Position numbers: made by a program
NCBI RefSeq assembly: GCF_053078305.1
Contig: NZ_CP166879.1
DNA length: 64,000 bases
Strand: one strand, 5' to 3'
In this document: positions 18,001 to 21,000 of the stretch, in pieces
Layout of the letters: each line of letters starts with the position of its first letter
Numbering within the stretch: position 1 is the stretch's first letter

Positions 18001-21000
18001 CACGACGACCGTATGCCCTTCGCTGAAGGCTTGTTTAAATGAGGCGATCCAGTCGTGTGGGTTGTAGTCGTTAATGTTAACGCTTTGTCGGGCGGGAAGT
18101 GCGCGAGCGAAAGGGGTATGGAGGAAGGCAAGCGCCGAGCTTGCCGTCAGGAAGGTGCGTCGGGAGAGTGTTTTAAATGGCATACGTTCTCCTCTATAAA
18201 GCCTGCAGCAAGCTGGCGAGTTCTCGATTAATCACCTGCTGGTTAAAATCGTGTTCGACTTTTTCGCGCGCACGTTTGACGACCGGAGCCAGTTCGTCGG
18301 TGTCCAGTTGACTAAACGCCGCCAGACGTTGTGCCAGTGCGCGAGCATCGTTCTCAGGCACCAGCCAGCCGGATTTATCGGCCTCCACCAGTTCCGGTAT
18401 TCCGCTATGTAGAGTAGAAACAACCGGAATGCCGACCGCCATCGCTTCCATCAGCGCCACCGGAATGCCTTCCATATCGCCGTCCGCACCTGTAACCGAT
18501 GGCAAGAGGAAGACATCCGCATCGTCGAGCATCGCTTTCACTTCATGGCTCGGTTTAAAGCCCGGCATCTCCACCACATCTTCCAGTTGATATTGTTCGA
18601 TGAGCGTGCGCAGGCGTCGTTCCCACGGGCCAATGCCGAGGATGCGATAGCGAAATGCCACGCCCTGCTCTTTCAACTGCCGGCAGGCTTCAATCGCCAC
18701 ATGCAGGCCTTTTTTCTCGGTTAAGCGTGCGACGGAGATGATTTCCAGCGGCGTTGCGGGCGCTTTCACCGGACGCGGGCTAAAACGCGTCATGTCCACG
18801 CCCATGCGCGATACGGCGATTTTTTCCCTCGGGCAGCCCATTTTTTGCAGCCTTCCGGCCCACAGATCGCTTATTGGTAACATCAGGTCGCCACGGCGAA
18901 ACAGTTGTTGATATTCGGGAGTGTAGTGGTTGAGCACTTCCCGACTGGAGATATCAATACCGTGAAAGATAGTGGCAATTTTGCCGCGAATGACCCCCAG
19001 TTCGCGTAGTTTTGCTGCGGTTACCCCCGCAGGGCCAAAATGAGCGATAAAGACATCGGCATAAAATGGTGTTGCGACCTGGCCGCAAATGGCAGACAAA
19101 ATCAGGTTTCGCGACTCAGCACCATAGCGTTTGAGGTTAAGTGCCTGCCAGGTATTTTTACGATGAATGCCGCGTAAGGTCTGACTGGCTCGGTGGCGCA
19201 GTTTCGCCACTTTGCCCGTAGGTTCGTCCTGTAACCAGCGGGTTCTGGCGGCAAGGTTGTATTTCGTCCATGCCGCGTGGGTGTTTTGTGTGTCGCCTTT
19301 TTGCAGCGCGACAATCTCCACCTCAAAGCCCATATCAATAAACGCAGTGATTTGGTTAAGAACGAAGGTTTCCGACGACAGCGGAAATTTCAATAAGAAG
19401 AAGCCGACCTTCATTTCACCTCCCCGATGCGTTCCAGTACGGACTGCACCATCTGCATTCCCGTCTGACGCTCACGACTGACGGCTTCGCTAAGTCGTGC
19501 GTTCAGCGCCGGAAGCAGGCCTAAGGTATCCGCAACCATCGCTTGCAGGCTGCCGTCCAGTAAATGACGGATATCAATCGCCATCTCTGGCAGCCCCAGT
19601 TGTTGCATAATCCCGGCGGATTTATGTTCGTAGTTGATGGCAATTGCCGGAGTAGCAAAATTCATCGAGATAATGGCGGAGTGCAGGCGCGTACCGACGG
19701 TGAGTTCACAGGCACCGAGAATTTTGCCCATTTCCAGATCGTTGAGTTCATCCATCACCACGTGGTAACGGGCAGGATCGCTGATATGCTGGCGAAGATT
19801 GAGCGCCACCATGCGGTCGTCTTTGTTATAGCTGTCTATGCCCGTACAGGTGGAGAGCGCAATGACCTGATAGCCTTCGTCGAGAATGCGATTGACCACC
19901 CCGGCAAAGGCTTTTTCATACGCATGTTGAGTGGTGCCGAGACGTTTGTCGAACGGTGCCAGTTCGCGCAGGGTAATTGCCACCGTTTTCTGTTGTGCGG
20001 CAACGTCCAGCCAGTGTTGAACGGCATAGCTGGCAGTGAAGTCTTCGGTGTGGTGATCGACCAGCCACGCAGTATCGACGCCATGTTCCACTTTTGCAGT
20101 GGTGATATTGCTGCGTTTCATCAGTTCAAGGCTGACCGATTCGCGCAGGATCAGCGCGTCGCAGTGACCAAAAACGTAGTTCGCCAGTTGGTTAAATTGC
20201 TCATCCTGGAAGGGGCCGACGCTGTGACCAATCATAAACAGCGGCTTTTTCGCCATAAACGTGCAAAGCGCATGTTCAAACTGCGGCACGCCGTAGAGAT
20301 CGACAAAAAACGATCCGCCGACCTGGATAATGGCGTCGTAACCTGACAGCAGGCGCACGAAGTCGGTGAATCCCTGGGCGATGGCGATATTGCGCAGCTT
20401 GCCAGTGTCGGTGACGCGTGAGAGCAATACCTGGTGCTGATAGCGGCGACGGAGGACTTTTTTAACGCGCCCGACAACGCCCGCCGCGCTGTTGTGTTGT
20501 TTCATTTGAAGGAACAGCGGATCACCCATTACCGGGCGGTTGAGCAGCCAGGAAGAACTGACCGGATAGCGGCTCATCACGTCCACTTCGGCATGTGGAT
20601 TGAGGATGTTGATGGCATCAAGTAAGCCGCGCAGGATGGCGCTGTCGCCACGATTGCCGCAAGTGTGGTTGCCCAGAATAAGTAATTTCATTTTTTCCTC
20701 ATAAATTTGATGCCAGGTGAGGCTGTGTTTGTTGTGTTCGTTGCCGTTTTTTGCCTGATGCGACGCTGGCGCGTCTTATCAGGCCTACAAGACCCGAGCA
20801 CAGAACCGTAGGCCGGATAAGGCGTTCACGCCGCATCCGGCATTCAGTGCCTGATGCGACGCTGACGCGTCTTATCAGGCCTACAGGTCCCGAGCACAGA
20901 ACCGTAGGATGGATAAGGCGTTTTACGCTGCACCCGGCAACCGTTGTCGGAACCGAAAACAACAACTCACCCCGCCCGTAAAAGCATTTTCATTTTTTCG

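What the first reader, a model, noticed from the sequence alone, without database searches (positions are those of the whole stretch)
20753..20937. REP/BIME islands at three intergenic sites in the colanic acid cluster
Palindromic REP units sit at wcaK-wzxC (20753..20937), cpsG-cpsB (25355..25456) and wcaA-wzc (35803..35863). They may act as mRNA stabilisers or segmental terminators within this long operon, and are candidate recombination sites.
Basis: partly seen in the sequence, partly recalled or inferred. Interest (0 to 1): 0.2.

Follow-up and report, generated by a model that had tools for sequence, protein, structure and literature searches.

The report
Ordinary REP repeats in colanic-acid operon
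The three sites hold ordinary E. coli REP/BIME palindromic repeats between colanic-acid genes; they were already described at exactly these gaps in 2011, their copy number varies between strains, and any effect on the operon's mRNA is inferred, not shown.

Summary
The window carries the E. coli colanic-acid (wca/cps) operon on the minus strand, and all its REPs (seven full, one truncated) lie in three intercistronic gaps.

- **wcaK–wzxC:** Z2-Y-Z2-Y, two tandem 96-bp BIME-2 units; the last Y is decayed.
- **cpsG–cpsB:** Z2-Y plus a 13-nt half Z2 that abuts the cpsB stop codon.

Iguchi et al. 2011 (PMC3158064) already reported REPs at these three gaps, with indels and the recombination idea.

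- **Within E. coli:** in systematic samples of 60 genomes, site 1 carries 0–6 units, site 2 carries 0–3 units, and site 3 has three alleles. The window has the commonest allele at each site.
- **Across 80 Enterobacteriaceae species:** the wzxC–wcaK gap is usually empty. The gaps after wzc, cpsB and cpsG usually hold some stable palindrome, but the repeat family differs by genus.
- **Mechanism (inferred):** −19 to −22 kcal/mol RNA hairpins act as 3'-exonuclease barriers and partial, Rho-assisted attenuators. None looks like an intrinsic terminator.
- **Recombination:** REP gaps were no more recombinogenic than other gene boundaries in a nine-sequence test.

The feature is already known and of low interest.

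The parts
20753..20788 (-). Site 1, Z2-type REP. GTAG reads 5' on the minus (mRNA) strand. It is the last REP met by the transcript and lies 60 nt upstream of the wcaK ATG.
   Evidence: Exact Z2 consensus. RNA hairpin -21.9 kcal/mol.
20789..20807 (.). Site 1, 19-nt linker AAGACCCGAGCACAGAACC between the GTAG/CTAC ends of Z2 and Y.
   Evidence: The linker is conserved between units and between strains.
20808..20842 (+). Site 1, Y-type REP (GTAG on the plus strand; appears in the mRNA as an inverted REP ending in CUAC).
   Evidence: Exact Y consensus. Hairpin -21.3 kcal/mol. Forms the 5' half of the Rfam naRNA4 match at 20811-20881.
20849..20884 (-). Site 1, second Z2-type REP, which opens the second 96-bp unit.
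   Evidence: Direct repeat 20752-20826 / 20848-20922, 93% identical. Hairpin -21.9 kcal/mol.
20904..20939 (+). Site 1, decayed Y-type REP (GTAGGATGGATAAGGCGTTTTACGCTGCACCCGGCA). It is the first REP met by the transcript, 26 nt after the wzxC stop codon.
   Evidence: Three substitutions in the REP stem relative to the K-12 copy. Hairpin only -8.6 kcal/mol.
25356..25391 (-). Site 2, Z2-type REP.
   Evidence: Hairpin -21.9 kcal/mol.
25403..25437 (+). Site 2, Y-type REP variant (GTAGGTCGGAT...ATCCGACA), 19 nt after the cpsB stop codon in the mRNA.
   Evidence: Hairpin -19.2 kcal/mol.
25444..25456 (-). Site 2, truncated Z2 REP (left arm GCCTGATGCGACG only), 1 nt from the cpsB stop codon. It is the direct repeat that flanks the 88-bp unit.
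   Evidence: K-12 has only this half REP. The window has an 88-bp insertion bounded by the 13-nt direct repeat.
35806..35839 (-). Site 3, solitary Y-type REP, 24 nt after the wzc stop codon and 33 nt before the wcaA ATG. GTAG reads 5' in the mRNA.
   Evidence: Exact Y consensus. Hairpin -20.9 kcal/mol.
19411..20691 (-). wcaK, the gene downstream of site 1 in the mRNA.
20967..22445 (-). wzxC, the gene upstream of site 1 in the mRNA.
23896..25265 (-). cpsG, downstream of site 2. It is frameshifted in this window.
25270..25319 (-). algC RNA motif (Rfam RF02929) in the cpsG leader, between the site 2 BIME and the cpsG start codon.
   Evidence: 77.3 bits against a gathering score of 33.8.
25458..26894 (-). 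cpsB, upstream of site 2.
34932..35771 (-). wcaA, downstream of site 3.
35864..38026 (-). wzc, upstream of site 3.
39795..39833 (-). JUMPstart element with the ops site GGCGGTAG (39799-39806) upstream of wza. This is the RfaH loading site for the operon that transcribes all three REP sites.
   Evidence: Rfam RF01707, 57.3 bits. ops match.

Best explanation
These are canonical E. coli REP (palindromic unit) elements inside the colanic-acid operon.
- Site 1 is a BIME-2 of two tandem [Z2-linker-Y-linker] units.
- Site 2 is one BIME-2 unit plus a truncated Z2.
- Site 3 is a solitary Y REP.

Shown here:
- their sequence class, orientation and position;
- their hairpin stability in the mRNA strand;
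- their high genomic copy number;
- strain-to-strain gain and loss of whole units between short direct repeats.

Inferred from work on other REPs: when the Rcs-activated, RfaH-loaded polymerase transcribes wza to wcaM, each REP folds into a stable RNA hairpin with two effects. It stops 3'-to-5' exonucleases, so it protects the segment upstream of it (wza-wzb-wzc; through cpsB; through wzxC). It also causes partial, Rho-assisted attenuation of read-through. Together these would give more message for proximal than for distal genes. Because RfaH suppresses Rho-dependent termination, the stabiliser role is probably the larger one in this operon.

The elements themselves are selfish or semi-domesticated repeats, spread and resized by TnpA-REP and by recombination or slippage between units. 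The site 1 copies are a lineage-specific, dispensable colonisation. I am about 0.97 confident in the identity and about 0.4 confident that they have a measurable regulatory effect at these particular sites.
For: Identity:
- Y and Z2 consensus matches with 0-2 mismatches, all with GTAG.
- 96-bp tandem unit at site 1.
- Rfam naRNA4 (a BIME-2 Y-Z2 unit) at 79.7 bits.
- The published definition of BIME-2 is z2 plus y, in tandem, with copy number variable among strains.
- Prior report of REPs in wcaK-wzxC, cpsG-cpsB and wcaA-wzc.

Structure:
- Hairpins of -19 to -22 kcal/mol.
- Intergenic transcript folds with z = -8.2, -4.2 and -2.4.

Polymorphism:
- Nine sequences aligned by eye.
- Samples of 60 genomes per site. 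Site 1 has 0/1/2/3/4/5/6 units in 8/10/23/3/5/4/1 genomes. Site 2 has 0/1/2/3 units in 11/35/4/3. Site 3 has three alleles in 34/14/11.
- Alleles are stable within clones: the O157:H7 genomes have 1 unit, the K-12 derivatives have 2, and EC958 and S21EC have 4.

Mechanism by analogy:
- REP325 attenuates the downstream gene about 8-10 fold, partly through Rho, and stabilises the upstream gene.
- REPs define protected 3' ends of Rho-terminated transcripts.
- A stem-loop attenuator after wzc and RfaH dependence of the genes downstream of wzc are stated.
- The ops site is present.

Cross-genus:
- 56 of 65 species have a structured element after wzc, and 44 of 75 have a REP-like hairpin, usually 7-16 nt after the cpsB stop codon.
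- Site 1 is short and unstructured in 54 of 72 species.
Against: - No expression data were examined for these sites, so the regulatory role is transferred from other loci.
- The 2026 preprint itself reports large context dependence and no uniform effect on half-life.
- Many E. coli do without the elements. Site 1 is empty in 8 of 60 genomes and replaced by another repeat in 3 of 60. K-12 and 10 other sampled genomes have only a half REP at site 2, which cannot fold alone.
- No U-tract terminator signature on the transcribed strand.
- The 'attenuator after wzc' statement comes from secondary citations, which I could not trace to primary data for colanic acid.
Confidence: 0.7

Rival explanations
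1. Neutral passengers. The REPs and BIMEs are non-autonomous mobile repeats that sit in the only gaps of the operon where an insertion does not break translational coupling. They have no selected effect on colanic-acid expression.
For: - Presence, absence and copy number vary freely among E. coli at sites 1 and 2.
- Site 1 is empty in 54 of 72 other species.
- One REP at site 1 is decaying in the window.
- In some strains the same gap holds a different repeat family.
- The same gaps hold different repeat families in different genera, as expected if every genome's repeats fill the permissive gaps.
Against: - Occupancy after wzc (56 of 65 species) and after cpsB and cpsG is much higher than at site 1, although all are gaps.
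- Site 3 keeps a REP in 59 of 60 sampled E. coli.
- A comparable BIME-2 has strong measured effects on its operon.
Confidence: 0.3
2. A DNA-level role. The BIME-2 arrays (sites 1 and 2) are DNA gyrase binding and cleavage sites that absorb the positive supercoils pushed ahead of polymerase along this operon of more than 20 kb when it is strongly induced. Any RNA effects are secondary.
For: - The sites are BIME-2 by composition.
- Gyrase binding to REPs and in vivo cleavage of BIME-2 are cited.
Against: - Nothing here tests DNA binding.
- Site 3 is a single REP, not a BIME-2.
- Strains with zero units at site 1 or site 2 keep an intact operon.
Confidence: 0.15
3. Translational down-regulation of the upstream gene. 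A REP hairpin close to the stop codon stalls the terminating ribosome and lowers the output of wzxC, cpsB or wzc.
For: - The published rule that a REP within 15 nt of a stop codon represses translation.
- In the UTI89 and O104 alleles of site 3 a REP starts 11 nt after the wzc stop codon.
Against: In the window the complete REPs start 26, 19 and 24 nt after the stop codons. Only the unfoldable half REP is closer, at 1 nt.
Confidence: 0.05
4. The site 1 unit encodes a naRNA4-like nucleoid-associated small RNA that works with the protein HU.
For: Rfam RF02564 match above the gathering score at 20811-20881, plus strand.
Against: - The match only reflects the shared Y-Z2 repeat unit.
- It is on the strand antisense to the cps transcript. 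The sense strand scores 55.4, below the gathering score of 59.5.
- No promoter-like site was found near the REPs.
- The nucleoid-compaction role of naRNA4 was not reproduced.
Confidence: 0.02

Closest known systems
[quoted passage not shown] 2011, PLoS One 6:e23250, PMC3158064)
   Same: The same three gaps (wcaK-wzxC, cpsG-cpsB, wcaA-wzc). The same observation of 34-36-bp REPs, of indels made of REP units, and the same suggestion that they take part in recombination.
   Different: That study compared six O157 strains. Here the units are typed (Y/Z2, BIME-2). The allele spectrum is sampled over about 4,700 genomes, and 80 other species are compared.
BIME-2 family of E. coli REP clusters (Bachellier/Gilson nomenclature, as summarised by Ton-Hoang et al. 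2012, PMC3333891)
   Same: Z2 and Y REPs in inverse orientation, short linkers, tandem repetition, and copy number that varies between strains.
   Different: Site 3 is a solitary Y REP. Site 2 ends in a truncated Z2. The linkers were not assigned to the named S/s/l/r motifs.
REP325 / naRNA4 between yjdM and yjdN
   Same: The same Y-Z2 unit (Rfam match at 79.7 bits), an intra-operon location, and tandem units. It is the best experimental model for attenuation plus stabilisation.
   Different: REP325 has six units and a linker 6 nt longer. The cps units are read by the operon in the opposite sense to the naRNA4 model. The cps operon is RfaH-dependent.
Stem-loop attenuator between wzc and the downstream genes in group 1 capsule clusters (E. 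coli K30, Klebsiella cps)
   Same: The position immediately after wzc, in a JUMPstart/ops-controlled polysaccharide operon. A structured element occupies this gap in 56 of 65 species.
   Different: In the window the hairpin is a genomic REP without a U tract. Attenuation at this site was not tested here. The K30 experimental work is recalled from memory (Rahn and Whitfield 2003) and was not read.

Membership tests
E. coli REP (palindromic unit) | Imperfect palindrome of 30-40 nt with an internal mismatch in the stem | tested here: met
   Seven units of 34-36 nt. The folds show a stem, a 2x2 internal loop, and a second stem.
E. coli REP (palindromic unit) | Conserved GTAG tetranucleotide at the foot of the palindrome | tested here: met
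   Present in 7 of 7 full units, including the decayed one.
E. coli REP (palindromic unit) | Match to the y, z1 or z2 consensus | tested here: met
   Three Z2 and three Y units with 0-2 mismatches, and one Y with more changes. The consensus sequences were written from memory and agree with the description.
E. coli REP (palindromic unit) | Extragenic location and high copy number in the genome | tested here: met
   All units lie between ORFs. The site 1 query hits a median of 37 places per genome, capped at 40 pieces.
BIME-2 | Composed of z2 and y REPs in inverse orientation with short linkers | tested here: met
   Site 1 linkers are 19 and 6 nt. Site 2 linkers are 11 and 6 nt. Not met at site 3, which is a single Y.
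BIME-2 | Occurs as tandem copies whose number varies between strains | tested here: met
   0-6 units at site 1 and 0-3 units at site 2.
BIME-2 | Binding and cleavage by DNA gyrase | not testable with these tools
   Known only from the literature cited.
BIME-1 | z1 plus y, separated by a long L linker that carries an IHF site | tested here: not met
   No credible Z1 unit was found. The only Z1 calls were two 6-error partial matches in other strains, which are Z2 by eye. The linkers are 6-19 nt.
naRNA4 (Rfam RF02564) | Covariance-model score at or above the gathering score | tested here: met
   79.7 against 59.5 bits on the plus strand. 55.4 bits, below threshold, on the strand transcribed by the operon.
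naRNA4 (Rfam RF02564) | Made as a discrete RNA that acts with HU on the nucleoid | not testable with these tools
   The role itself is disputed.
Intrinsic (Rho-independent) terminator | G+C-rich hairpin followed directly by a U tract on the transcribed strand | tested here: not met
   No terminator-like site at any REP on the minus strand. The total count in the cluster is at chance level, 25 against 21.2 +/- 4.7.
Translation-repressing REP (Liang et al. 2015 rule) | REP hairpin within 15 nt of the upstream stop codon | tested here: not met
   The gaps are 26, 19 and 24 nt. Only the half REP, which cannot fold alone, is 1 nt away. The rule is as quoted.
Post-wzc transcriptional attenuator of Wzy-dependent capsule operons | Stable stem-loop immediately 3' of wzc in an ops/RfaH-controlled operon | tested here: met
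   A -20.9 kcal/mol REP lies 24 nt after the wzc stop codon. The ops site is at 39799-39806.
Post-wzc transcriptional attenuator of Wzy-dependent capsule operons | Reduces read-through unless RfaH is present | not testable with these tools
   Only second-hand statements were found.

The most novel reading that the evidence does not exclude
The colanic-acid operon is under selection to carry a stable hairpin at fixed intercistronic positions: after wzc, after cpsB and after cpsG. Different Enterobacteriaceae meet this need with whichever palindromic repeat family their genome carries (REP in Escherichia, Citrobacter and Salmonella; a boxC-like G+C-rich repeat in Enterobacter, Kluyvera, Buttiauxella and others). 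Within E. coli, the number of BIME-2 units at wzxC-wcaK (0-6) and cpsB-cpsG (0-3) would then act as a heritable dial. It would set strain-specific ratios of proximal to distal gene expression, and so the amount or pyruvylation of colanic acid.
Probability: 0.15. Interest if true: 0.4.

Novelty: already known. Interest (0 to 1): 0.1.

Why it matters
It matters little. REPs are the most abundant repeats of E. coli, and their presence at these three gaps has been published.

There are two modest points of value:
- These sites offer a natural allelic series (0 to 6 BIME-2 units in one operon, stable within clones). This could be used to test the recent 'terminator plus stabiliser' model of REP function.
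- The gaps after wzc, cpsB and cpsG are occupied by some palindromic repeat in most Enterobacteriaceae, while the repeat family turns over. That hints at either selection for a hairpin or strongly preferred landing sites.

Tried and rejected
- **Pattern search with a degenerate first base:** I replaced it with head and tail motif searches.
- **Fuzzy whole-REP regex scanner:** it missed or mislabelled several units, for example the decayed Y and units in UTI89. The unit counts therefore rest on reading the aligned sequences.
- **Megablast with a query that contains the REPs:** in 4,312 records it hit the 40-piece limit, and long alleles lost the left flank. I redid the search with REP-free flank queries.
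- **Other weak motif hits in the window (47023, 54644-54712, 58955):** inspected; they are not REPs.
- **Intrinsic terminator reading:** rejected.
- **naRNA4 gene reading:** rejected.
- **BIME-1/IHF reading:** rejected, because no credible Z1 unit and no long linker are present.
- **Preferential recombination junction reading:** not supported. The correlation of flank distance matrices at the REP gaps is 0.19, 0.12 and -0.10. Other boundaries range from -0.14 to 0.82, and the whole cluster is mosaic. With nine sequences this is a weak test.
- **Supplementary 3'-end tables of Dar and Sorek 2018:** not held.
- **Recent REP papers:** neither mentions the wca or cps genes.
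Full report
**What is there.**
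The window carries the E. coli colanic-acid (wca/cps) operon on the minus strand. Megablast against 5,426 complete E. coli genomes and the K-12 MG1655 annotation identify wcaK (19411-20691), wzxC (20967-22445), cpsG (23896-25265), cpsB (25458-26894), wcaA (34932-35771) and wzc (35864-38026).

Reading the three stated places shows textbook REP sequences.
- **Site 1** reads, on the plus strand, Z2 (20753-20788), a 19-nt linker, an inverted Y (20808-20842), a 6-nt linker, Z2 (20849-20884), a 19-nt linker, and an inverted but decayed Y (20904-20939). This is two tandem 96-bp units, 93% identical.
- **Site 2** is Z2 (25356-25391), an 11-nt linker, an inverted Y (25403-25437) and a 6-nt linker. It ends with only the left arm of another Z2 (25444-25456), which stops 1 nt before the cpsB stop codon.
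- **Site 3** is one solitary Y (35806-35839).

The motif counts exceed shuffles: 23 head-motif hits against 6.95 +/- 2.9, with 0 of 100 shuffles reaching 23. Nothing else in the 64 kb is a REP.

**Class.**
Ton-Hoang et al. define E. coli REPs as 30-40-nt imperfect palindromes with a conserved GTAG, of types y, z1 and z2. BIME-2 is z2 plus y, in tandem copies whose number differs between strains.
- Sites 1 and 2 meet that definition. Site 3 is a single REP. BIME-1 is excluded, because there is no credible Z1 and no long linker.
- Rfam reports naRNA4 (RF02564) at 20811-20881. The alignment shows that this is simply the Y-linker-Z2 unit shared with REP325.
- That match scores 79.7 bits on the plus strand, which is antisense to the operon. 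It scores 55.4 bits on the transcribed strand, below the gathering score of 59.5.

**Prior knowledge.**
Iguchi et al. 2011 sequenced this region in six O157 strains. [quoted passage not shown] They noted that many indels consist of REPs and proposed that REPs take part in recombination around the O-antigen locus. The finding, including its recombination idea, is thus already published.

I fetched eight genomes across all three sites and read the gaps in register. I then took a systematic sample of 60 genomes per site, using queries made of the flanks only, so that the span in each genome gives the allele length.

| Site | Allele | Genomes (of 60) |
|---|---|---|
| 1 (wcaK-wzxC) | 0 units | 8 |
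| 1 | 1 unit | 10 |
| 1 | 2 units (window, K-12) | 23 |
| 1 | 3 units | 3 |
| 1 | 4 units | 5 |
| 1 | 5 units | 4 |
| 1 | 6 units | 1 |
| 1 | internal-deletion derivative | 2 |
| 1 | a different G+C-rich repeat instead | 3 |
| 1 | partial match | 1 |
| 2 (cpsG-cpsB) | 0 units (K-12; only the half REP remains) | 11 |
| 2 | 1 unit (window) | 35 |
| 2 | 2 units | 4 |
| 2 | 3 units | 3 |
| 2 | unrelated REP-free spacer | 6 |
| 2 | partial match | 1 |
| 3 (wcaA-wzc) | 92-bp single Y (window) | 34 |
| 3 | 177-bp allele | 14 |
| 3 | 128-bp allele | 11 |
| 3 | partial match | 1 |

- At site 2 the 88-bp unit is bounded by the 13-nt direct repeat GCCTGATGCGACG. This is the signature of gain and loss by recombination or slippage between units.
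- The two longer site 3 alleles carry a different inverted REP that starts 11 nt after the wzc stop codon.
- Alleles look stable within clones: the O157:H7 genomes have 1 unit, the K-12 derivatives have 2, and EC958 and S21EC have 4.
- The window has the commonest allele at each site.

**Variation beyond E. coli.**
One scan of species-representative genomes with WcaI returned 80 Enterobacteriaceae loci that cover all the sites. I located the gaps by tblastn of the flanking proteins.

| Gap | Species | Result |
|---|---|---|
| wzxC-wcaK (site 1) | 72 | Median 30 nt. 54 are short and unstructured. |
| cpsB-cpsG (site 2) | 75 | Median 110 nt, including the cpsG leader. 44 have a REP-like hairpin, usually 7-16 nt after the cpsB stop codon. 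|
| wzc-wcaA (site 3) | 65 | Median 109 nt. 56 are structured: 8 REP-like, 30 with a boxC-like CCCTCTCCCC/GGGGAGAGGG palindrome, 18 other. |
| cpsG-wcaJ | 74 | 72 are structured. |

- The E. coli BIME-2 at site 1 is therefore a lineage-specific gain.
- The 'boxC-like' label is from memory and was not tested.
- So the same gaps hold a stable palindrome in most genera, while the repeat family turns over. This fits selection for a hairpin, especially after wzc. It also fits the view that these are the only permissive landing gaps. I cannot separate the two readings.

**How it most likely works.**
Shown here:
- In the mRNA strand each intact REP folds to -19 to -22 kcal/mol, and the decayed one to -8.6.
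- The three intergenic transcripts fold better than shuffles: z = -8.2, -4.2 and -2.4.
- No REP has a U-tract terminator signature on the transcribed strand. Terminator-like hits in the cluster are at chance level.
- Complete REPs start 26, 19 and 24 nt after the stop codons. This is outside the 15-nt range reported to repress translation.
- The operon has a JUMPstart with the ops site GGCGGTAG upstream of wza.

Inferred from other REPs:
- REP325, a BIME-2 of the same make-up, lowers expression of the downstream gene about 8-10 fold, partly through Rho. It also stabilises the upstream message, with strong dependence on context.
- REPs mark protected 3' ends of Rho-terminated transcripts.
- Secondary sources state that the cps operon has a stem-loop attenuator right after wzc, and that RfaH is needed for the genes downstream of wzc. 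In the window the only strong hairpin in that gap is the site 3 REP.

I therefore favour exonuclease barriers plus partial, Rho-assisted attenuation. Because RfaH suppresses Rho-dependent termination, the stabiliser role probably dominates once the operon is on.

The main rival is that the elements are neutral passengers. The free presence/absence variation at sites 1 and 2 supports this rival.

**Recombination.**
Unit-number change inside the BIMEs is clear. As junctions of the larger mosaic, the REP gaps are not special in my small test.
- The correlation between the pairwise-distance matrices of the 800-bp flanks is 0.19, 0.12 and -0.10 at the REP gaps. At the other 14 gene boundaries it ranges from -0.14 to 0.82.
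- Per-gene identities show mosaicism throughout the cluster. wcaM-wcaK are more divergent (about 95-96%) than the rest (about 97-98%). There is a sharp step at wcaK|wzxC against O157:H7 (96.7 to 99.7%), which echoes Iguchi's example.

**Verdict.**
This is a real feature, correctly recognised, already described at these exact sites, and a member of a very well known family. The functional claims are plausible by analogy but untested here. Interest is low.

Noticed in passing
window 23896-25265 (-), near 24995: cpsG (phosphomannomutase) is frameshifted in the window. One G is missing (GGATGGCGGC becomes GGATGCGGC) at about gene position 271, which splits the ORF into 24945-25313 and 23896-24963. 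All eight comparison genomes are intact. This is either a pseudogene or a sequencing error.
   Followed up: partly
window 25270-25319 (-): An Rfam algC RNA motif (RF02929, 77.3 bits) lies in the cpsG leader, directly downstream of the site 2 BIME in the mRNA. The matching leader sequence (GGCC...CTGTTGCCTGAAGAAGGGTAA) recurs in the twelve species whose cpsB-cpsG gaps I read.
   Followed up: partly
window 39795-39833 (-), 14208-14246 (-), 40386-40393 (-): Two JUMPstart elements with ops sites, one upstream of wza and one upstream of the neighbouring O-antigen cluster. A third bare GGCGGTAG lies at 40386-40393.
   Followed up: partly
window 23842-23895 (wcaJ-cpsG gap): A small conserved hairpin CCCCTTACCC-N6-GGGTAAGGG (-16.9 kcal/mol) is kept in Escherichia, Citrobacter and Salmonella. 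In the O26 and O55 E. coli strains (L004, L005) and in many other genera it is replaced by a 100-190-nt boxC-like G+C-rich palindromic repeat.
   Followed up: partly
L006 16293-16453 (E. coli strain 18b); 3 of 60 sampled genomes: At site 1 the REPs are absent. A 161-bp spacer with a boxC-like repeat (CCCCTCGCCCCCAGGGGAGAGGGTTAGGGTGAGGGG) takes their place.
   Followed up: no
L007 27372-27451 (UTI89, wcaE-wcaD gap): The gap is 80 bp instead of 10 bp. The insert (CGTCATACTTCAAGCTGCATGTGCGTTGG...CTCGCTCACCC) looks like a truncated ERIC/IRU repeat. This is recognised from memory and was not tested.
   Followed up: no
L007 31192-31319 and L003 31560-31736 (site 3 alleles of UTI89 and O104:H4); 25 of 60 sampled genomes: These alleles carry an inverted REP (GTAGGTCGGATAAGATGCGTCAGCATCGCATCCGAC) that starts 11 nt after the wzc stop codon. 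This is inside the 15-nt range reported to repress translation of the upstream gene. The window allele is different.
   Followed up: partly
window 35864-35880: The last codons of wzc (GTCGGATGCGAAATAA) resemble a REP arm. In the minimum-energy fold they pair with the 3' arm of the site 3 REP. The same 10-mer, CGCATCCGAC, ends the inverted REP of the longer alleles.
   Followed up: no
E. coli genome collection: About 680-785 of the 5,426 complete E. coli genomes give no megablast match to the REP-free flank queries at the three sites. The colanic-acid cluster may be absent, replaced (perhaps by group 1 capsule loci) or disrupted in them.
   Followed up: no
window 16789-20691 versus 20967-38026: wcaM, wcaL and wcaK are consistently more divergent from the eight comparison genomes (about 95-96%) than the rest of the cluster (about 97-98%). 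The step is sharpest against O157:H7 exactly at wcaK|wzxC (96.7 to 99.7%).
   Followed up: partly
L043 (CACSKA010000001.1): A contig titled 'Chryseobacterium sp. 18061' carries a typical enterobacterial wca locus (WcaI 82% identical). The assembly is probably mislabelled or contaminated.
   Followed up: no
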